Positions 19,196-61,669 of a stretch of 64,000 nucleotides of DNA are shown one piece after another; the stretch's first letter is position 1; every line of letters starts with the position of its first letter. The position numbers were made by a program, and so were the translations under genes. Source of the DNA: Candidatus Saccharimonadia bacterium (GTDB lineage: Bacteria > Patescibacteriota > Saccharimonadia > UBA4664). The notes below the pieces were generated by a model. It was not told the DNA's origin. It ran no database searches and was given only the letters and a program-made list of their open reading frames with translations. The stretch is taken from assembly GCA_035479295.1 (NCBI GenBank), contig DATIIV010000033.1, forward strand, positions 2,901 through 66,900. The letters are read 5' to 3'.

Positions 19196-20998
19196 TTAAG
19201 CAGCTTGATTGAGATGCGGTCGAGTCCGATCAAGGACGGCCATAACCCGGCGCCGAGTCTGCAGCACGATATCCTGAGCGGCCTGCTGAAACTGGCGGCC
19301 GCGATCTTCGCCTTGCTCGGCCGAGCGCAGAAGGTCGGCCAGGGTTAGGAAGTCGGGGCTTAGTGCGAGACCCTTGCCTGCCGAAAACCGGGCGGCCCAC
19401 GGGTCGTCGGAGGGGCGAGTCATTTGGTGGCTGGCAAATAAATCGTTCATTTGGGCGGAATATTGCTGCCAGGCGGCCGCTAGCTCGGTCTTTGACGGGT
19501 CCGCCGCCTCTTTGGGATGCTCCAAGAGCTGAGTGTGTGCTTTAAGGGCGCTAAAGAGAGCACTGGCGCTGCGCATCGTACGGTTAAGCCCTGATAGGCC
19601 TTTAGCCTCCAGCGTTCGTAACTCCACCGCGGTGGAAGCATCTCCCTGGATGTCTTCACTGCTTCGTTCCATAATGCCGCCGTTACCCTTGCAGGCCCAG
19701 CCGCCCTCAGGAGCGGTTGATGCTTGTTCCAGCCGTTCGGCACTACAGCTCCAACCGGTAGCCTCCAGCCCGTGCAATAAGGTATACACCTCATTGCCGG
19801 CCGGGCCGTTAGTACTGACTTCGGCGCCCGTAAGATGCAGCGGATACGAATACTCATTGCGGAGAAGGTCGGCCTGCATCAGGGCCTGGACTTCGCGCGT
19901 GTGGGTGAGGTAGCTGTAAGCCGGGCGAGGGGCGAATTCCCACATGGCGTCGCTACCCGCTGGTATACCCAGTTGCTCGCTGTGGCGATAATTGGCTTGT
20001 CGCTGGTAGGCTCGAGCCTCTCGCTCCTCACTAGAAAGGTTCAAGTTGTCATCAACTAATAATGACTCTTCTTCGATCTCTACTTCTATGCCTAGCGTGG
20101 TGCTATAAGGCGAGGGATTGTCCTCTTGATAGGCGGCAATAATTAGTCGCTCTTTAAACTGCTCAGGAGTGTGCGACGATAAGGGGCGCTCCATCAGAAC
20201 CCAGAGATTCTGGAGCGTCTCCGAACGCTTACCGGAGCCCTGGGAACTAACCATAAGATCAGGTTTTCGGCGAAGGCTCTGCCCAAAGTCTGGGTCGTTC
20301 ACGCTGTCATTAAAGAATTCTTGGGCATAGGCCAGAGCCAGGACTTCGGGACGAGATATCGTCCGGAAGTAGTTGAGAGCTTCTGCCCGCTGGCCGCGGT
20401 GACGAACGCCTTTAACATACTCATCGAGCCAGCCCTCTACGTGCTGCTGCCATTGTTCCCGGCTCGCCTCCGAGGTGGCTCGGTGCTCAATGGCCGAGGC
20501 TACGAACAGCGCATCGTTCATCTTGTAACTGCGGTACTCTGGGTCTGGTTCGGTGGCGATAGCATGGGACGCATAGGCAGCGAGGTGGGGTAGTAGCTGG
20601 TCGTCACCCAATCGAGCTAGGGCGACACGCAATGGTTGTTCCATTTTGCCCTGTTGAACAACATAATCAGCAATCTCGGGCACATTTTCCCTCGTAGCAG
20701 CGGCGTTTACCAGACTGGCACTAAGCTCCGGTATAAGCCTGCCTTGGCTAAGTTCTTGGAGTACGGCATGGGCGGCTGGAGCTCCTTCTTGTCGAAACTG
20801 GCGTAGTAAGGCTACGGCACGTGTCTTCTCGGCGTCACTGGGCTTCAGCTTTAATTGGATAGCTGCAAACTCGTGAGTCAGGGCCGTCAGATCCTCCTGG
20901 TTCGTCTCACTGGTGTTGGCTGTGAGGTCGCGGTAGGCGTCGGCGCCCTGAAAGTCCGGCTTGTCACCATGATGGGGCGAGTGGTGCTCGTAGTTCAT
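19196..20998 (-). CDS. Large hypothetical protein (600 aa)
   Basis: Long GC3-rich ORF with no recognised domain. Confidence 0.45.
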   Translation of the reverse strand: MNYEHHSPHHGDKPDFQGADAYRDLTANTSETNQEDLTALTHEFAAIQLKLKPSDAEKTRAVALLRQFRQEGAPAAHAVLQELSQGRLIPELSASLVNAAATRENVPEIADYVVQQGKMEQPLRVALARLGDDQLLPHLAAYASHAIATEPDPEYRSYKMNDALFVASAIEHRATSEASREQWQQHVEGWLDEYVKGVRHRGQRAEALNYFRTISRPEVLALAYAQEFFNDSVNDPDFGQSLRRKPDLMVSSQGSGKRSETLQNLWVLMERPLSSHTPEQFKERLIIAAYQEDNPSPYSTTLGIEVEIEEESLLVDDNLNLSSEEREARAYQRQANYRHSEQLGIPAGSDAMWEFAPRPAYSYLTHTREVQALMQADLLRNEYSYPLHLTGAEVSTNGPAGNEVYTLLHGLEATGWSCSAERLEQASTAPEGGWACKGNGGIMERSSEDIQGDASTAVELRTLEAKGLSGLNRTMRSASALFSALKAHTQLLEHPKEAADPSKTELAAAWQQYSAQMNDLFASHQMTRPSDDPWAARFSAGKGLALSPDFLTLADLLRSAEQGEDRGRQFQQAAQDIVLQTRRRVMAVLDRTRPHLNQAA

Positions 20999-33073: not shown

Positions 33074-33736
33074 CTACATCTCGACCTCCCGAGAGTCGGA
33101 ACAGTTCGCGGTGGGGCATAGCGGCTGCAGGTGTCGGCGCGATTGCCAGAGCTCGCGAATCGTTTTGCCGATGGGCGGCACCACGGTTAGAGAGATCAAC
33201 CCAAAGATCAGCCAGGCGGCCAGGTTGATGAGATACGGTTGGTTGAAGAGCCAGGCCGTCAGGCCGCCGAGGGCCACCAGTAGCGAAGCCCCAAAGTCGC
33301 AGGTAAAGTGGAGCCGGTTGGCCTCGTGACGCTCCAGTCGCGGTGTGCGCCACAGACCGTAGGCGTTGATGGCCAGACCGGTGAGGCCGGCGCTCAGGCT
33401 AACCAGCAGCTGGGCTGTGCCCGCCGTGTCGGTGTGCTCCCACAGCGGCGCCACGCCCACAAACGCCAGCGTTACCACGTAGATGGCCAGCTTGAGTCCG
33501 CGCTGGCCGTGGTAATGCAGGCCATGGTGCTTGGTGCGAGCCAGGCGTCGACCAATAGCGCTGGCGGCCAGCAGGGTCGGGCCATCGAAGGCGTTGTGAA
33601 TACCATCGCTGGTCACGGCGGCATTGTGCAGCCAGAAGTGGCCGAGAAACAGCTCGATGGGTGCGAACACCAGGAACATCAGACCGACTTGCGTTACGGC
33701 GTCGGCCTGGCGTAACTGGCGCCAAACAGCGTTCAT
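33074..33736 (-). CDS. Cation diffusion facilitator-like membrane protein (TM domain only, putative)
   Basis: Two HxxxD motifs in TM helices (IHNAFD and HFTCD). No cytoplasmic C-terminal domain. Confidence 0.45.
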   Translation of the reverse strand: MNAVWRQLRQADAVTQVGLMFLVFAPIELFLGHFWLHNAAVTSDGIHNAFDGPTLLAASAIGRRLARTKHHGLHYHGQRGLKLAIYVVTLAFVGVAPLWEHTDTAGTAQLLVSLSAGLTGLAINAYGLWRTPRLERHEANRLHFTCDFGASLLVALGGLTAWLFNQPYLINLAAWLIFGLISLTVVPPIGKTIRELWQSRRHLQPLCPTANCSDSREVEM

Positions 33737-34721: not shown

Positions 34722-34803
34722 ATTCTAGCCCTAAACGATTTTGCCCCGCCGAAACCACCAACCACTCCTGCGGTCAGCTGTCTCGGCGGGGCTCCTGGCT
34801 TGA

Positions 34804-34941
34804 TCAGTCGTCGACACCGGCGATCTTGCGGGTTACAGCGGCGGCCCTTGCGGCGCAGCCACTGCAGATAGTGCCCGCATCCTTTACTTCAACCTGCTTG
34901 CAGTTCTCGTACTTGGGCTTGGCCGGGGGCATATTAACCAT
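34804..34941 (-). CDS. Small Cys-containing peptide (45 aa), hypothetical
   Basis: MVNMPPAKPKYENCKQVEVKDAGTICSGCAARAAAVTRKIAGVDD. It lies 20 nt downstream of the sigma-r4/alpha-CTD-like gene on the same strand, with GGAAG about 10 nt upstream. Not in the ORF track (under 60 aa). Confidence 0.3.
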   Translation of the reverse strand: MVNMPPAKPKYENCKQVEVKDAGTICSGCAARAAAVTRKIAGVDD

Positions 34942-34960
34942 GGTGACTCACTTCCGTTCA

Positions 34961-36106
34961 TCAGCTAGCAATAATCTCTTCGTCGACAAGCTGGACGAGC
35001 GGGCTCGATGGGTTCTCGCCCCGCAGAGCCAGCCCCTGGTGAAATAGAGCTAGCCGAACTGCATCAAGGTACACGGGACCAAAGCTGGGCCAGGCCTTCA
35101 ACCAGTCGGCCGTCACATCGCGCAGATCCTGCGCCGAGGCGATGTTCATTTTGGCCAACAGCGGTAGAAGCTGATGTTTCAGGTAGCCTCCCAGGGGCGT
35201 CAGCAAATCCTCGATCGGTATATCTCGAGGCGTCGCCAGATACATACTAGCAACTGCCAGTCGGCCTCGTTCCAGCAGGCTTTTGACCGCCCGAGGCGTC
35301 AGACTGGTGGCCTGCGCAATCTCGCCGAGTGGCTGATGGCTCAGCCCGTCAAGGCCGTAGTACAGCTTAAGGACGCGCTGAACCGTCTCGTCCAGCCTGT
35401 TGACCAGACTCAGCCTGGTCTGCCACCAGGCTGGGCTGTAGCAGTTTGGCAGCTCGGGGTTTCGGGCCAGCGTGACCTTTTGTGGCCGCCACACCTCTTC
35501 TCCGGCCAGGGCCAGACCATGATAGCTCAGGCTCACTCGAACGAGGTCGACAAACGCCTTGCTAAAGCCGGGCCAGACGAGAAGCCAGTCTTTGGCGGTG
35601 CCCGTGAGGTCACGAAGGGTATGAATGCCCATGTCGTGAAGCAAGTCCAGAATCCTAGCAGCCTCAAGCTGCCGGTGGGTAGCAAATTTTAGCTCCCGAA
35701 TCGATCGGCAGGCCGACAGCTCATCGGTTGGCCTTGCCTTATCCTGAGCTTGAGCGGCTACATATGCTCGCTGAATCCGCTTTTCGATGGTCCTGCGGCT
35801 TAGCCCAACTTGCCTTTCTAGCTGAAGATAGGTAAGAGCGGGCCCGTCCAGGCCATAATAGCGGCGGATGAGGCTTTGCACCTGGGGGTGAAGTCGCTCG
35901 AGAAGCTCCTGATGTGCCTCCCACCAGCGACCAGTAATCTGCTTGATCTGGGTAGGAGACAGCGTAGGCACAGCACCTGGTCCCTTCGCACATAGAGGCG
36001 TCCCGGACTGGACGCCAGGACGACTATACAATAAATTCCATAGAAAAGTGAAGCAGCATCTCGCCAGGGGCTTATCTATTGCCTGTCCTTGACTCTTCCG
36101 CAGCAA
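34961..36106 (-). CDS. Protein with tandemly duplicated module: sigma-70 region-4-like HTH plus RNAP alpha-subunit C-terminal-domain-like HhH (putative transcription regulator)
   Basis: Module 1 is VQSLIRRYYGLDG...LSRRTIEKRIQRA followed by GIHTLRDL...DWLLVWPGFSKAFVDLVRVSLSYHGLAL. Module 2 is VQRVLKLYYGLDG...LTPRAVKSLLERGR followed by NIASAQDL...DWLKAWPSFGPVYLDAVRLALFHQGLAL. Confidence 0.55.
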   Translation of the reverse strand: MLRKSQGQAIDKPLARCCFTFLWNLLYSRPGVQSGTPLCAKGPGAVPTLSPTQIKQITGRWWEAHQELLERLHPQVQSLIRRYYGLDGPALTYLQLERQVGLSRRTIEKRIQRAYVAAQAQDKARPTDELSACRSIRELKFATHRQLEAARILDLLHDMGIHTLRDLTGTAKDWLLVWPGFSKAFVDLVRVSLSYHGLALAGEEVWRPQKVTLARNPELPNCYSPAWWQTRLSLVNRLDETVQRVLKLYYGLDGLSHQPLGEIAQATSLTPRAVKSLLERGRLAVASMYLATPRDIPIEDLLTPLGGYLKHQLLPLLAKMNIASAQDLRDVTADWLKAWPSFGPVYLDAVRLALFHQGLALRGENPSSPLVQLVDEEIIAS

Positions 36107-36183
36107 TCAGCATATTAAATAAGCCCTCGGATGAGCGCGCTCGAGGCGCCCAGTTTAATCGGAACCAGCAAGGAGCCCCATTT

Positions 36184-36381
36184 ATGGCGGAGATTCCTGA
36201 CGAAGAGACCAGCCCGCGACCTAACCGGTTGACGTTCGAACAACAGCAAGCACGGCAGGCCGCTGCCCCGGTCGATGCCGGTGGGAATCCGCGGCTTCCA
36301 CGCTGCAAGAACTGCGTATGCGGCGGCTGTACCCTCGGCATAGGCTGTGAGGGTTGCACGACCTGTAATCCACCGAGCTAG
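36184..36381 (+). CDS. Leader plus Cys-rich-core small peptide (65 aa), candidate RiPP precursor or metal-binding peptide
   Basis: An AAGGAG SD lies 8 nt upstream of the ATG. MAEIPDEETSPRPNRLTFEQQQARQAAAPVDAGGNPRLPR-CKNCVCGGCTLGIGCEGCTTCNPPS has 7 Cys in the last 25 residues. A terminator follows. Confidence 0.5.
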   Translation: MAEIPDEETSPRPNRLTFEQQQARQAAAPVDAGGNPRLPRCKNCVCGGCTLGIGCEGCTTCNPPS

Positions 36382-36457
36382 TCTGCCGCAGCACACACTG
36401 TCGTAATGATCGCTCGGCGCCGGGTGGCGTCGATTACTAGTTGCGATAGGCTCAGTC

Positions 36458-36492
36458 GGGATTGGGCAAGACCTCGCCCAATCCCGGCTTTT
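36458..36492 (+). terminator. Rho-independent terminator after the Cys-rich peptide gene
   Basis: GGGATTGGGC-aagacctc-GCCCAATCCC followed by GGCTTTTGTT. Confidence 0.5.
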
Positions 36493-36505
36493 GTTGGAGG
36501 CGACT

Positions 36506-36670
36506 CTAGGATAGCCCTAGCTCGCGCCAAAGCGCTTCATCGTGCCTTTTCAGGTCATTTTTCGCGTTACGGAGACGGATTTCCAGCCTGTAACGATCTC
36601 CTGGCCCGAGACCAGCCTCTTGTAGTTTCTCGGTAGCCGCCTCAATCACACCCACGAGGTGCGTGGCCAT
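36506..36670 (-). CDS. Small helical hypothetical protein (54 aa)
   Basis: An AGGAAG SD lies 6 nt upstream of the ATG. MATHLVGVIEAATEKLQEAGL... Convergent with the peptide gene. Confidence 0.3.
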   Translation of the reverse strand: MATHLVGVIEAATEKLQEAGLGPGDRYRLEIRLRNAKNDLKRHDEALWRELGLS

Positions 36671-36734
36671 CGGGTCTTCCTGATGCGACTCGCCGCTAGC
36701 GTCTGACACGACCCATTCCTTTGCTCCGCGATTT

Positions 36735-36758
36735 CTGTCCTGCGGGCATGCAGGACAG
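36735..36758. other. Perfect 9-bp-arm palindrome
   Basis: CTGTCCTGC-gggcat-GCAGGACAG. On the minus strand it lies just downstream of the tRNA-Ile 3' end. Confidence 0.3.
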
Positions 36759-36823
36759 AAGGGCAGAGTAAAAGCTTGGCTGCTTACCATCGGCCGCCTG
36801 GGCAATAGTTAAGAATAATTCCT

Positions 36824-36899
36824 TGGTAGGCCCGGCTGGATTCGAACCAGCGACCAGTACCTTATAAGAGTACCGCTCTAACCGCTGAGCTACGGGCCC
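36824..36899 (-). tRNA. tRNA-Ile with anticodon TAT (UAU)
   Basis: Reverse complement is GGGCCCGTAGCTCAGCGGTTAGAGCGGTACTCTTATAAGGTACTGGTCGCTGGTTCGAATCCAGCCGGGCCTACCA. It folds as a cloverleaf with anticodon loop CTTATAA, U33, A37 and discriminator A73. Confidence 0.7.
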
Positions 36900-41339: not shown

Positions 41340-41985
41340 CGTGGGTAGGTCTTTGACGGTAAGAGAGTAACTAGCTCCCGGATGCGAGCCGCCGGCCAGA
41401 ATGTGGCGATTGGCACCCGGGAGCTATAGAATCTGAGGAGGCGTCATGAGCAACCGCGACAGCTAGCACTGGCAGCTTCCTCAGGACCGGGATCCTGGTC
41501 CCCCGACGAAGGGAGGAGGGGCAGGTGCCACCACTGCACGACACGTAGGTGCCGCCATGGTTTCCGTAGCGCCCGCGGCAATGGGCGCAATGCAAGTGGT
41601 ACCCCCTGTGCTACCGCAGGGAGCGGTAGCGCAATTTAAGGACGTGGCCGAAGGCCGCCATAGAGCGTTGATCTCTCGAGCCACGCGCACGCTTGCTGGG
41701 CTACCGTTCACGGGTTTGGCCCCCTGAGTTTGAAGGGAAACCAGATGAGGCGAAGACAGGCATCGCTCCGCTAGCAGCGAAGCTTCCGGTGCTGGCACCG
41801 GAGATTTCACTGCTTTGCGACCCGTACTGGCGTTGGGTCGCCGCGTGGCGGAGGGCCTCCCCGGGTCCTCCGCCACACCGCCAACCTCATTCTCGGCTGT
41901 TTTACTGCTATTATTCATGACCAAACGGCCCTTATGGGCTGTTTTTTTAGTGCCCGGCGGCCGGCAATTGTGTATGATAGGATCC
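41340..41985 (+). other. About 650-nt GC-rich non-coding region with multiple stable hairpins, candidate structured RNA or long leader
   Basis: No ORF has plausible composition. Hairpins include AGCTCCCGG...CCGGGAGCT (41373-41425), the near-palindrome GGACCGGGATCCTGGTCC, GCTACCGC-aggga-GCGGTAGC, and a terminal GGCCC..GGGCTGTTTTTTT. Confidence 0.3.
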
Positions 41986-42771
41986 ATGGAAACCGACGCT
42001 CCAGTTACCAAGGCCCGCGCCGACCGTGCCACCGTGGTGCTGCGCTGGGCGGTGGGCGTGGTGCTGGCGGCCGTGGTGGTGCTGGCCGGGTTGGCGGCTG
42101 TTGCTTACGCACAGACTCCCGAGGGCATTCGCCATCCCGCCGGTACGCACTATCACTTCCGATTGCAGCTTATCGTGGGCGGCCAGGCGGTCAATTTTGG
42201 CTCGGCCGCGTACCAAACGCCGCTCAATCACGACATCTGCACCGCCAAGCTCACTAATGAGCCGATCCATTTTCACGATAATCTCGACCAGTTTGCTCAT
42301 ATTCATTGGGCACATATTACCGGCGGCCTTTTTCTCAAGAATTACGGTTGGAATCTGGTGGGCGGGCTGTCCGGTGTGCTTGGCTATCGATTCGACCAGT
42401 TGCCCAAGGTGACTGCTGTGCCAATTCACGGCCACGTCCTGCCCGCGCCGCCGGCCGGGGCTCATTACTATATTTACACCGGCGATCAAACCAGCTATCA
42501 GCAGCGCAATTGGAACGATTTCTTGCATCAAGACATTAACGTGTTCTTTGGCCACCCCACCATCTCGGCGGCTCAACCAACCAGCCAGAGCTGGTGGTTA
42601 TGGCTGGTGCCAACCGCCTCCGCTCACGGCGACGAGACTGAGCTGACCGAGCTCAATCATGTCGTGGGCAGCGCGGTTATTTTTGTTCAGCCAGAGGCGC
42701 CGACCGCCGCCCAGATCAAAGACCGCTTTAACCACCTGATACCGCTGCCCACGAGTACTTGTGGTGGCTAA
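41986..42771 (+). CDS. Hypothetical N-terminally anchored His-rich protein
   Basis: TM anchor then a domain rich in His clusters (HYHF, HFHDN, HIHWAHI, HGH). Alternative ATG at 41974. Confidence 0.4.
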   Translation: METDAPVTKARADRATVVLRWAVGVVLAAVVVLAGLAAVAYAQTPEGIRHPAGTHYHFRLQLIVGGQAVNFGSAAYQTPLNHDICTAKLTNEPIHFHDNLDQFAHIHWAHITGGLFLKNYGWNLVGGLSGVLGYRFDQLPKVTAVPIHGHVLPAPPAGAHYYIYTGDQTSYQQRNWNDFLHQDINVFFGHPTISAAQPTSQSWWLWLVPTASAHGDETELTELNHVVGSAVIFVQPEAPTAAQIKDRFNHLIPLPTSTCGG

Positions 42772-52193: not shown

Positions 52194-52478
52194 ATGAACA
52201 AGCTCGCCGTGGCCGCCAAGTTAATCCAGATCGGTAACTCGCGCGGGGTGCGGTTGCCCAAGGAGCTGATTGAGCAGGCGGGCCTGGGCGATGAGATAGA
52301 GCTAGTGGTACGCGACGGCGAGATTCTGATTGCTAATCGCCGGCGGCCGCGCCAGGGCTGGGCCGAGATCTACGAGGAGCTAGCACGGACGGGTCAGCTA
52401 GCGCTGACGGAGGAGGACCAAGAGTGGCTGAATATGCGCTCCTTGCCCGAAGAGGAGGCCGATTGGGAGTGGGAGTGA
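52194..52478 (+). CDS. mazE: MazE-like antitoxin (SpoVT/AbrB swapped-hairpin)
   Basis: ...IQIGNSRGVRLPKELIEQAGL... AbrB-type N-domain and acidic C-tail EEEADWEWE. Stop overlaps the mazF GTG. Confidence 0.65.
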   Translation: MNKLAVAAKLIQIGNSRGVRLPKELIEQAGLGDEIELVVRDGEILIANRRRPRQGWAEIYEELARTGQLALTEEDQEWLNMRSLPEEEADWEWE

Positions 52479-52792
52479 GGCGTGGCGAAGTCTACTTGGT
52501 GCGATTTGGCCCCGCCGTTGGCAGTGAGGTTGTAAAAGACCGGCCGTGCGTGGTGGTCTCGCCCGACGAGATGAACGCCAAGGCTGCGACCTTTATTGGC
52601 GTGCCGCTTACGACCAAGTATCGGCCCTATCCCAGTCGGATTCGTTGTGAAGTGCGCGATAAAGTTGGCTATGCTATGTTGGACCAGGTTCAAGTATTGA
52701 GTCCGCAGCGGATTATCAGCCAAATAACTCAGCTTCATCAAAGTGAGCTGGAACGAGTGCTTGACCGCTTAGCCGAGATGTTTGCATTGTGA
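52475..52792 (+). CDS. mazF: MazF/PemK-family endoribonuclease toxin
   Basis: RRGEVYLVRFGPAVGSEVVKDRPCVVVS...GVPLTT signature. GTG start with a GGGAG SD (GTGA overlap). Confidence 0.8.
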   Translation: MRRGEVYLVRFGPAVGSEVVKDRPCVVVSPDEMNAKAATFIGVPLTTKYRPYPSRIRCEVRDKVGYAMLDQVQVLSPQRIISQITQLHQSELERVLDRLAEMFAL

Positions 52793-60454: not shown

Positions 60455-61669
60455 GTGCGCTGGGTCGCCCAGCACATTAGCCGTAGCCGTAATGGTATAC
60501 AGGCCGCTGGGCAAATGGGCTATGCGTATATATGAGCTATCGGTAGCCGTTCCGGGCCCGCTGAACGTCTGTTGAACCAGGGAATAGAGTGTGGCCCCAA
60601 TCGAGCTGGCGCTCGTAATGGTATAAACGACCTGCACGCTGCTGGCCGTGCCGGCACTAAAGGTGGCCTGGACATTCATCTCGCAATCGTTCACGAAGCC
60701 TGGGTCTTGGCGCTGATTGTCTATGAGACTGACAGGTGTAAGCGGGCTCGTCAAGAAAGACGTTCGTTGGGGCGATTGCAGCGGCTGTGGGCTGGCGCAG
60801 GTACTAAAGATAGCTGGGCTGGCGGTGACGCTAATGCTGGGATTGGCAGTATCGGTGATAGTAACACCAATGCGATAGCTGTCTCCGGGCTCCAGGCCTT
60901 GTAGTGGGTAAGCAGGGGGGTGGTCAGTTTGGCTGCCGGCGGCAGAGAAATTGTAGGGGTAGGGATTCTCTATACCGTTGTCGGTTTTAGTGCTGAGCTC
61001 CTCCCAGGTTACATTGACGCTACCACTACCATTGACGCTAAAGGTGACGTATTCGTTGAGGATGCAGTTATGGGCACCGCCGGGGGTGATGGTGGGTGCA
61101 AAATTGGTAATGTTAATGGCGGTCATTGGTCCGGGCGGCGGCGGAGTTGGGGCAGGTGTCGGGGCGGGCGTGGGCGCTGGTGTTGGTGAGGGCTTGGAAG
61201 TTGAGCCGCCCGAGCTGCCGGAACCGCCCGATTTTGTAGTGGTTTTCGTAGCCGGATTGGTAGTTTGGCCCTGCGTGGTTTGTTGCAATTGCGCCACCTG
61301 GGACTGGAGCGCCGTTGAGCCTGTGTCACCGATGCCCTGCAGTAAGGCCGCTGCCGCCGCCGGATTGTGCTGTTGCAACAGTTGTTGCGCTTGCGCCAGC
61401 TTTTGGGCGACCTGCTGAAAGTGCTGATTGCGCTGTTGTTCCGCTCGGATCTGTTGAGCAAGCCCAGGCCAAACGCCCAGCTGGTTAATGGACTGCAGCT
61501 GCTGGGCCGCGGTCACGTAATGTCCAGCCGTATCGAGCTGTTGAGCCGTGCGCAGCTTATGCGTGGCTTGATAGTTCTGGTATCCTAACCAACCGGCCAG
61601 GCCAAGGAGCACCATCATGAACGCCAAGAGGAGTTGCCATCGGCGCGTTTTTAGGGCAGTCAGGAGCAT
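60416..61669 (-). CDS. Hypothetical surface protein with N-terminal TM, Gln-rich coiled coil and PTPA-repeat linker
   Basis: 417-aa ORF with a Ser/Thr-rich beta-like C-terminal domain. Confidence 0.45.
   Translation of the reverse strand: MLLTALKTRRWQLLLAFMMVLLGLAGWLGYQNYQATHKLRTAQQLDTAGHYVTAAQQLQSINQLGVWPGLAQQIRAEQQRNQHFQQVAQKLAQAQQLLQQHNPAAAAALLQGIGDTGSTALQSQVAQLQQTTQGQTTNPATKTTTKSGGSGSSGGSTSKPSPTPAPTPAPTPAPTPPPPGPMTAINITNFAPTITPGGAHNCILNEYVTFSVNGSGSVNVTWEELSTKTDNGIENPYPYNFSAAGSQTDHPPAYPLQGLEPGDSYRIGVTITDTANPSISVTASPAIFSTCASPQPLQSPQRTSFLTSPLTPVSLIDNQRQDPGFVNDCEMNVQATFSAGTASSVQVVYTITSASSIGATLYSLVQQTFSGPGTATDSSYIRIAHLPSGLYTITATANVLGDPAHSTTFAPITSGCG
61148..61195. repeat. Tandem 12-nt repeat (4 units) encoding a TPAP linker
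   Basis: ggggcaggtgtc / ggggcgggcgtg / ggcgctggtgtt / ggtgagggcttg on the plus strand correspond to PSPTPAPTPAPTPAPTPPPP on the minus strand. Confidence 0.3.

What the first reader, a model, noticed from the sequence alone, without database searches (positions are those of the whole stretch)
36184..36381. Cys-rich peptide with precursor-like leader, divergent from an unusual regulator: candidate novel RiPP or metallopeptide locus
The 65-aa product has an acidic or Gln-rich N-terminal half with no Cys. Its C-terminal 25 residues carry seven Cys (CKNCVCGGCTLGIGCEGCTTC), including CxxC, CGGC and GCxGC spacings. The gene has a consensus SD and its own terminator, and is transcribed divergently from the sigma-r4/alpha-CTD-repeat gene, which suggests dedicated regulation. 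The neighbourhood contains a minimal CDF-type metal transporter (33074-33736) and a DsbB/DsbA pair. This fits either a Cys-crosslinked ribosomal peptide (SCIFF/ranthipeptide-like Cys density) or a metal-sequestering peptide. No maturase (radical SAM, YcaO, LanB/C) is visible within the window.
Basis: partly seen in the sequence, partly recalled or inferred. Interest (0 to 1): 0.75.

Follow-up and report, generated by a model that had tools for sequence, protein, structure and literature searches.

The report
Orphan cysteine-rich small gene, function unproven
A 65-residue open reading frame with seven clustered cysteines and good expression signals really exists in this Saccharimonadia (candidate phyla radiation) genome, but it has no relative anywhere and no peptide-modifying enzyme nearby, so it is best read as a lineage-specific, possibly metal-binding small protein rather than a demonstrated natural-product precursor.

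Summary
ORF 36184-36381 (+) encodes 65 aa, with Cys at 41, 44, 46, 49, 55, 58 and 61. It has an AAGGAG Shine-Dalgarno 8 nt before the ATG, a sigma-70-like promoter and a 14-bp intrinsic terminator. It sits back-to-back with the promoter of a protein made of two sigma-region-4 repeats.

The peptide has no homolog in 5.8 billion clusters, in an exhaustive phmmer of 1.84 billion representatives, or in DNA-level scans. It matches no Pfam, NCBIfam, PHROGs, PADLOC or PDB entry. No known RiPP maturase domain occurs in the 64 kb.

The peptide, the regulator and two small ORFs fill a variable slot (34722-36823) just 3' of tRNA-Ile(UAU). Six relatives keep the DUF8173-DivIC-tRNA backbone, and five also keep DsbA, but all carry unrelated content in the slot. 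The Dsb and ABC-transporter neighbours are therefore backbone genes, not partners.

Coding statistics are inconclusive, and equally Cys-dense stretches arise by chance in off-frames. My estimates:
- A real orphan gene whose Cys cluster binds metal, loosely like smtA/smtB: about 0.4.
- A non-functional ORF or non-coding RNA: about 0.27.
- A RiPP precursor: about 0.1.

Interest is modest.

The parts
36184..36381 (+). 65-aa ORF (pep65) including the TAG stop. Residues 1-40 are Cys-free, acidic and Gln/Pro/Ala-rich.
   Evidence: Called as a gene in the NCBI and Logan annotations.
36304..36366 (+). Cys-rich segment, residues 41-61: CKNCVCGGCTLGIGCEGCTTC (7 Cys in 21 residues).
36170..36175 (+). Shine-Dalgarno AAGGAG, 8 nt upstream of the ATG.
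36089..36116 (+). Sigma-70-like promoter TTGACT-16 nt-CATATT (9 of 12 matches).
36454..36499 (+). Intrinsic-terminator-like hairpin (14 pairs) plus TTTTGTTGG. The T-run is on the + strand only.
36023..36052 (-). Promoter-like TTCACT-18 nt-TATAGT for the divergent regulator. Its -35 lies 36 bp from the -35 of the peptide promoter.
34961..35971 (-). Divergent 336-aa orphan DNA-binding protein. It is a tandem duplication of a sigma-70 region-4 HTH plus a weakly alpha-CTD-like helical module.
34804..34941 (-). 45-aa ORF with 3 Cys, immediately downstream of the regulator on the same strand; orphan.
36506..36709 (-). 67-aa orphan ORF convergent with pep65.
34722..36823 (.). Lineage-specific variable slot holding the four ORFs above. 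It is bounded by the hyp110 gene (which has a homolog in L003) and by tRNA-Ile.
36824..36899 (-). tRNA-Ile(UAU). This is the conserved backbone gene that marks the slot boundary.

Best explanation
pep65 is a real but lineage-specific (orphan) small gene in a hypervariable slot just 3' of tRNA-Ile in a Saccharimonadia genome. It is transcribed from its own sigma-70-type promoter, translated from a strong SD and ATG, and terminated by its own hairpin. Its promoter sits back-to-back with that of an equally orphan DNA-binding protein built from two sigma-region-4/alpha-CTD-like repeats, which probably controls both promoters (inferred). The product has no signal peptide, so it stays in the cytoplasm. 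Its C-terminal heptacysteine cluster most likely coordinates metal, either Zn/Cu thiolate or an Fe-S cluster (inferred from composition only). On this reading it works loosely like a mini-metallothionein or metal-cluster peptide under a divergent regulator, as smtA/smtB does. It is not a demonstrated RiPP precursor. Shown here: the ORF, its expression signals, its orphan status, the slot architecture, and the absence of recognisable maturases in 64 kb. Inferred: translation, metal binding and regulation.
For: Expression signals: promoter and terminator and SD. AAGGAG-ATG marks long-ORF starts in the five other cases in the window. Without this ORF the regulator-orf67 gap would be 534 bp, against typical spacings of 200 bp or less. 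Orphan status does not argue against the gene being real. The adjacent 336-aa regulator has Pfam sigma-r4 hits and an internal protein-level duplication (E 8e-22), yet it is equally without homologs. Synonymous codon use (0.025) is similar to the regulator (0.052) and to hyp110 (0.022), which has a homolog in L003. For metal binding: 7 Cys in 21 residues with CxxC and CxC spacings, no aromatic residue or His in the cluster, an odd Cys count, and no signal peptide. The same chromosomal position holds Zip and Fur genes in relatives and a CDF gene here. A divergent regulator plus a Cys-rich metal protein is an established layout, as in smtA/smtB (PMC4353254).
Against: There is no homolog anywhere, so there is no evidence of purifying selection. 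The codon log-likelihood is -0.10 per codon. That is below 99% of real-gene windows and within the range of spurious ORFs, and GC by codon position is flat at 0.63/0.62/0.65 against 0.64/0.44/0.71 for genes. Comparable Cys density arises by chance in off-frames. Pfam lists no metallothionein model at E <= 0.1. AlphaFold gives no confident fold, with pLDDT 55.6. The regulator is not an ArsR/SmtB, Fur or MerR-type metal sensor. Two conserved hypothetical genes separate the CDF gene from the slot, so the metal context is circumstantial. No expression data are available.
Confidence: 0.4

Rival explanations
1. The ORF is not a functional peptide gene. It is a chance open frame in young, lineage-specific, GC-rich DNA. 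Any transcript from the promoter to the terminator would be non-coding or would make no selected product.
For: There is no homolog in any database. The codon log-likelihood lies in the spurious range and GC is flat across codon positions. The Arg/Pro/Ala/Gly-rich N-terminal half is typical of random frames in 60% GC DNA. Equally Cys-dense off-frame stretches exist in the same window. The same frame stays open for 85 more codons after the stop, which shows how easily open frames arise here. The promoter-to-terminator RNA folds slightly better than shuffles, z = -1.95.
Against: The ORF has the strongest class of SD in the window at ideal spacing before an ATG. The five other AAGGAG-ATG sites all open long ORFs of 91-643 aa. 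A correctly oriented promoter and a strand-specific terminator bracket exactly this ORF. No Rfam family matches the gap. The fold z-score comes mostly from the terminator hairpin. Synonymous codon use is compatible with neighbouring real genes.
Confidence: 0.27
2. It is a RiPP precursor (ranthipeptide/SCIFF-like, sactipeptide, lanthipeptide or thiazole-type). Residues 1-34 or 1-40 would be the leader, and the Cys/Thr-rich core would be cross-linked by a maturase encoded outside this window.
For: The layout is a leader-like Cys-free N-terminal part followed by a Cys/Thr/Gly-rich C-terminal part. A Gly-Gly occurs at residues 33-34. SCIFF-type precursors are likewise short with C-terminal Cys clusters (PMC8326336).
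Against: No NCBIfam or Pfam precursor family matches at E <= 1. The Pfam annotations covering the 64 kb list no radical-SAM/SPASM, YcaO, LanB/C/M or C39-peptidase transporter, and RiPP precursors are normally adjacent to their maturase. The nearby ABC transporter is an ABC-2 type backbone gene conserved in relatives that lack the peptide. The residues before the GG do not fit my recollection of the double-glycine leader consensus.
Confidence: 0.1
3. It is a metal- or Fe-S-bearing partner of the divergent sigma-region-4 repeat protein, following WhiB-like logic. The Cys cluster would hold a cofactor, and the peptide would dock on the region-4 domains to modulate DNA binding in response to redox state or metal.
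For: Wbl proteins are small [4Fe-4S] proteins that bind sigma region 4 (PMC6954389 and PMC10245118). WhiB1 has Cys at 9, 37, 40 and 46, that is C-x2-C-x5-C (PMC6282962). The peptide contains the same spacing at C46-x2-C49-x5-C55. Its only linked gene is a protein with two region-4 domains. The two promoters are back-to-back.
Against: Pfam lists no Whib match at E <= 0.1. The G[V/I]WGG motif is absent, and the peptide is 65 aa against 81-139 aa for Wbl proteins. Wbl proteins are reported only from Actinobacteria and their phages. The matching spacing could easily be coincidence among seven Cys. No interaction test was possible.
Confidence: 0.08

Closest known systems
smtA/smtB-type bacterial metallothionein locus (Synechococcus PCC 7942)
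   Same: Both have a small cytosolic Cys-rich protein with CxC and CxxC motifs, transcribed divergently from a dedicated DNA-binding regulator (PMC4353254; PMC8790569).
   Different: There is no sequence similarity to any metallothionein model. Cys residues are confined to the last third of the peptide. The regulator is a sigma-region-4 repeat protein, not ArsR/SmtB. Metal binding is untested.
SCIFF / ranthipeptide precursors
   Same: Both are short peptides with a Cys-free N-terminal part and a C-terminal cluster of six or seven Cys interspersed with Thr and Gly.
   Different: NCBIfam lists no matching family. There is no adjacent radical-SAM/SPASM maturase in 64 kb. The organism is a Saccharimonadia bacterium, whereas SCIFFs are described as widely spread among Clostridia.
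WhiB-like (Wbl) [4Fe-4S] proteins
   Same: Both are small Cys proteins with a C-x2-C-x5-C spacing, and both have a link to sigma region 4. For pep65 the link is genetic; for Wbl proteins it is physical.
   Different: The G[V/I]WGG motif is absent and Pfam gives no Whib match. The peptide is shorter than any Wbl protein and has seven Cys rather than four.
Double-glycine-leader bacteriocins
   Same: A GG occurs at residues 33-34, ahead of a 31-residue Cys-rich C-terminal part.
   Different: The leader lacks the conserved hydrophobic and acidic positions of the double-glycine consensus (from my own knowledge). No C39-peptidase ABC exporter occurs in the window.

Membership tests
SCIFF / ranthipeptide precursor | Sequence match to a curated precursor family model (NCBIfam, which I recall holds a SCIFF model, or Pfam) | tested here: not met
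   The peptide hit 0 families in NCBIfam at E <= 1 and 0 in Pfam at E <= 0.1.
SCIFF / ranthipeptide precursor | Radical-SAM/SPASM maturase encoded next to the precursor | tested here: not met
   The Pfam annotations of called genes and ORFs covering the 64 kb show no Radical_SAM or SPASM hit. The rest of the genome could not be reached.
SCIFF / ranthipeptide precursor | Thioether cross-links in the mature product | not testable with these tools
   This needs mass spectrometry or NMR.
Lanthipeptide / LAP / thiopeptide precursor | LanB/C/M/KC or YcaO-type enzyme in the gene cluster | tested here: not met
   No such Pfam domain occurs in the window.
Bacterial metallothionein (SmtA/BmtA type) | Homology to a metallothionein family model | tested here: not met
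   Pfam lists no family for the peptide, and the best PDB hit is at E 1.7.
Bacterial metallothionein (as a functional class) | Low mass, high Cys content with CxC/CxxC motifs, and few aromatic residues | tested here: inconclusive
   The C-terminal 21 residues meet it: 33% Cys, no aromatic residue, no His. Over the whole peptide Cys is only 10.8%, and the first 40 residues have none.
Bacterial metallothionein (as a functional class) | Stoichiometric metal-thiolate cluster formation | not testable with these tools
   This needs metal titration with ESI-MS.
Bacterial metallothionein (as a functional class) | Control by a metal-sensing regulator | tested here: inconclusive
   A divergent regulator is present, but it is a sigma-r4 repeat protein with no recognisable metal-sensor family.
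WhiB-like (Wbl) | Four invariant Cys including C-x2-C-x5-C | tested here: inconclusive
   C46-x2-C49-x5-C55 is present among the seven Cys.
WhiB-like (Wbl) | G[V/I]WGG motif after the last Cys, length of about 81-139 aa, and a Pfam Whib match | tested here: not met
   The motif is absent, the peptide is 65 aa, and Pfam gives no hit.
Double-glycine leader bacteriocin | Consensus leader plus a C39-peptidase ABC exporter | tested here: not met
   Only the GG is present. The window's ABC system is ABC-2 type with no peptidase domain.

The most novel reading that the evidence does not exclude
The peptide and the sigma-region-4/alpha-CTD repeat protein form a previously undescribed two-component regulatory or biosynthetic module in a CPR episymbiont. 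One version has a cofactor-bearing (Fe-S or metal) mini-protein docking on region-4 domains, analogous to WhiB-like proteins but evolutionarily independent. The other has a new Cys-cross-linked RiPP whose maturase lies elsewhere in the genome.
Probability: 0.12. Interest if true: 0.7.

Novelty: new variant of a known kind. Interest (0 to 1): 0.3.

Why it matters
If the peptide is made and binds metal, it would be a metallothionein-like or cofactor peptide in Saccharimonadia, paired with an unusual regulator assembled from RNA-polymerase-derived DNA-binding modules. I know of no such case, but I did not search the literature systematically for one. It would also illustrate how tRNA-adjacent slots in these tiny genomes acquire lineage-specific genes. 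The case rests on one genome, with no conservation and no expression data. Its practical value is therefore as a cheap candidate for synthetic-peptide testing, not as an established discovery.

Tried and rejected
- **Homolog searches for the peptide.** The word-indexed search returned only the peptide itself. The exhaustive phmmer of 1.84 billion representatives returned itself plus one hit (P0003) to the Cys-free residues 7-39, which BLASTP with composition-based statistics does not support (E 66).
- **Profile libraries.** Pfam, NCBIfam, PHROGs, PADLOC and PDB gave nothing for the peptide.
- **DNA-level searches.** tblastn against plasmids and phages found nothing. Back-translated pattern scans of GTDB genomes and IMG/VR found nothing.
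- **Cys-spacing DNA pattern in the metagenome collection.** It returned 120 loci, all TGC/TGY simple repeats.
- **Regulator.** No homolog was found in proteins, viral contigs or PDB sequences.
- **First genome scan.** Using the DUF8173 neighbour as query, it found nothing. Relatives were reached instead through protein homologs and their encoding contigs.
- **Six-frame comparison of the slot with six relatives.** It found nothing.
- **Known RNA in the gap.** Rfam found none.
- **Integrated island at the tRNA.** There is no integrase. A 14-nt exact repeat links the tRNA to the regulator CDS, but the similarity does not extend beyond those 14 nt, so I treat it as chance.
- **Frameshift or truncated longer protein.** The in-frame upstream region contains the promoter and the SD. 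TAG is the commonest stop codon here. No relative has a longer homolog. I rejected this.
- **Structure prediction.** The peptide gave pLDDT 55.6 and the regulator 41.2. Both are too poor for a fold search, so none was run.
- **Strain variation.** The two other assemblies of this locus are 100% identical to the window, so no polymorphism data exist.
- **Sample provenance.** The run accession appears in no held paper.

Full report
**Observation.** The ORF exists exactly as described. It runs from ATG at 36184 to TAG at 36379-36381 on the + strand and encodes 65 residues.
- Residues 1-40 (MAEIPDEETSPRPNRLTFEQQQARQAAAPVDAGGNPRLPR) contain no Cys.
- Residues 41-61 (CKNCVCGGCTLGIGCEGCTTC) contain seven Cys, spaced C-x2-C-x-C-x2-C-x5-C-x2-C-x2-C.
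- AAGGAG lies at 36170-36175, 8 nt before the ATG.
- A sigma-70-like TTGACT-16-CATATT lies at 36089-36116.
- A 14-pair hairpin at 36454-36489 is followed by TTTTGTTGG on the + strand only.
- A second promoter-like site, TTCACT-18-TATAGT at 36052-36023 on the minus strand, faces the divergent gene. The two -35 elements are 36 bp apart.
- The scan found two promoter-like sites against 0.6 expected.

**Organism and uniqueness.** The sequence comes from a metagenome-assembled 'Candidatus Saccharimonadia bacterium' (GCA_964451975.1; also Logan SRR9179560). The three available assemblies are identical over this locus.

The peptide has no relative:
- The 5.8-billion-cluster search found only the peptide itself.
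- An exhaustive phmmer over 1.84 billion representatives found only the peptide itself plus a hit to Cys-free residues 7-39 of a 1095-aa protein. BLASTP with composition-based statistics does not support that hit.
- Pfam, NCBIfam, PHROGs, PADLOC and PDB sequences gave nothing.
- Plasmid and phage records gave nothing.
- Pattern-plus-tblastn scans of GTDB genomes and IMG/VR gave nothing.
- A DNA pattern for the Cys spacing, run on the metagenome collection, returned only TGC/TGY simple repeats.

The divergent 336-aa protein is equally without homologs. It is nevertheless clearly a protein. It hits Sigma70_r4_2 and Sigma70_r4. Its two halves align at 32% identity with E 8e-22. A profile built from the two halves weakly but repeatedly matches sigma region 4 (profile positions 21-69) and the RNA polymerase alpha C-terminal domain (positions 93-157), at E 0.3-1.5.

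**Genomic context.** Homologs of the neighbouring DUF8173/bactofilin protein, at best 47% identical, led to six relatives.
- All six share DUF8173-DivIC followed by a tRNA. Most also share the wider order: MurJ-FtsH ... DUF8173-DivIC-tRNA-[slot]-(Zip or CDF)-DsbA-(DsbB)-ABC2-ABC.
- In L132 the tRNA is followed directly by Zip. In L133 a 517-bp stretch without called genes separates the tRNA from Zip.
- L131 has DUF2207, a 216-aa gene, Fur and Zip in the slot.
- L003 is the closest relative, with DivIC 64% identical and a 265-aa neighbour 69% identical. Its slot holds an unrelated 300-aa orphan, followed by homologs of the window's hyp110 and hyp186.
- In the window, the slot (34722-36823) holds orf45, the regulator, pep65 and orf67. 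None of these has a tblastn or six-frame match in any relative.
- DsbA and the ABC transporter are therefore backbone genes shared with five relatives that lack the peptide, and DsbB with one. They are not its partners.
- The position does recurrently host metal-homeostasis genes: Zip and Fur in relatives, a CDF gene here. That is mild circumstantial support for a metal theme.

**Is it a gene?**

Evidence for:
- The SD is of the strongest class in this genome.
- Six AAGGAG-N4-9-ATG sites open an ORF of at least 40 aa in the window, and the other five start ORFs of 91-643 aa.
- A promoter and a strand-specific terminator bracket the ORF.
- Without this ORF the gap would be 534 bp, in a genome whose intergenic spacings are mostly 200 bp or less.
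- No Rfam family explains the gap.

Evidence against:
- The codon log-likelihood is -0.10 per codon. That is below 99% of real 65-codon windows and inside the distribution for spurious ORFs.
- GC by codon position is flat. Much of this reflects the unusual amino-acid composition.
- A purely synonymous score (0.025) falls at the 18th percentile of real-gene windows. It is similar to the regulator (0.052) and hyp110 (0.022), so it is uninformative.
- Cys density alone is not significant. About 0.13 such windows are expected per 64 kb, and an 8-Cys off-frame stretch exists at 61323.

I put the probability that the peptide is expressed and translated at about 0.7.

**What it does.**
- There is no signal peptide, and the Cys count is odd.
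- The Pfam annotations covering the 64 kb contain no recognisable RiPP enzyme or C39 exporter.
- AlphaFold gives no fold for the peptide (pLDDT 55.6).
- The most economical mechanism is metal or cluster coordination by the heptacysteine segment. Expression would be controlled by the divergent regulator through the back-to-back promoters. This is the same logic as smtA/smtB, but there is no homology to it and the regulator type is different.
- A more speculative variant notes that C46-x2-C49-x5-C55 reproduces the WhiB C-x2-C-x5-C spacing, and that Wbl proteins dock on sigma region 4. The peptide could then be a cofactor-bearing partner of the region-4 repeat protein. Wbl membership fails, however: there is no GVWGG motif, no Pfam hit, and the peptide is too short.
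- The RiPP reading rests only on the leader-and-core look of the sequence.

**Verdict.** The anatomy is confirmed, but the function is not established. My probabilities are:
- Real orphan gene encoding a metal-binding Cys peptide: 0.4.
- Non-functional ORF or non-coding transcript: 0.27.
- RiPP precursor: 0.1.
- Wbl-like partner of the regulator: 0.08.
- Other: the remainder.

Interest is modest (0.3). The case rests on a single genome, with no conservation and no expression evidence, although the peptide would be cheap to test as a synthetic product.

Noticed in passing
window 36824-36899 (-) and 41974-42771 (+); L003 8466-8541; L131 3338-4252; L132 4620-5231: The tRNA next to the slot is tRNA-Ile(UAU) in the window and in L003. 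In five other relatives the positionally orthologous tRNA has a CAU anticodon; the acceptor, D and T arms are conserved and only the anticodon arm is remodelled. Two of those relatives, L131 and L132, carry a TilS-like PF01171 gene next to FtsH. The window and L003 have an unrelated 265/260-aa protein there, 69% identical to each other. This suggests a CAU-to-UAU switch of tRNA-Ile2 together with loss of lysidine synthetase in this sub-lineage.
   Followed up: partly
window 34961-35971 (-): This orphan 336-aa protein is a tandem duplication (E 8e-22). Each repeat has a sigma-70 region-4 HTH followed by a helical module weakly similar to the RNA polymerase alpha C-terminal domain. Two -35-like hexamers lie in inverted orientation (AGTGAA 36047-36052, TTGACT 36089-36094) in the promoter region it shares with pep65. 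It has no homolog in 5.8 billion clusters.
   Followed up: partly
window 34722-36823 versus L003, L005, L007, L131, L132, L133: The DNA immediately 3' of the conserved tRNA is a hypervariable slot. Its content is unrelated in every relative. Fur occurs in the slot only in L131, and Zip lies at its far end in L003, L131, L132 and L133, where the window has a CDF gene instead. No integrase is present.
   Followed up: yes
window 35923-35936 and 36846-36859: A 14-nt exact direct repeat, ACCAGCGACCAGTA, occurs once inside tRNA-Ile and once inside the 5' end of the regulator CDS. About 0.01-0.03 such pairs are expected in 2.7 kb by my estimate. The similarity does not extend beyond the 14 nt, so it is probably chance.
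   Followed up: partly
window 34804-34941 (-): A 45-aa orphan ORF with three Cys (C-x11-C-x2-C) starts 20 nt after the regulator's stop on the same strand. It may be co-transcribed with the regulator.
   Followed up: no
window 36382-36636 (+): The pep65 reading frame stays open for 85 codons beyond its TAG. It crosses the terminator and overlaps orf67 on the opposite strand. TAG is the commonest stop codon in this genome, so read-through is not expected.
   Followed up: yes
window ~61323 (+ frame 2): An 8-Cys stretch (CSKAAAAAGLCCCNSCCACASFWATC) lies in an off-frame, antisense to a 417-aa gene. It is a useful internal control showing that Cys-dense frames arise by chance here.
   Followed up: yes
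window 19196-20998 (-): A 600-aa ORF has no Pfam match at E <= 0.001. Several neighbouring ORFs between 17.5 and 23.5 kb are also unannotated.
   Followed up: no
window ~52194-52792 (+): A MazE-antitoxin / PemK-toxin gene pair.
   Followed up: no
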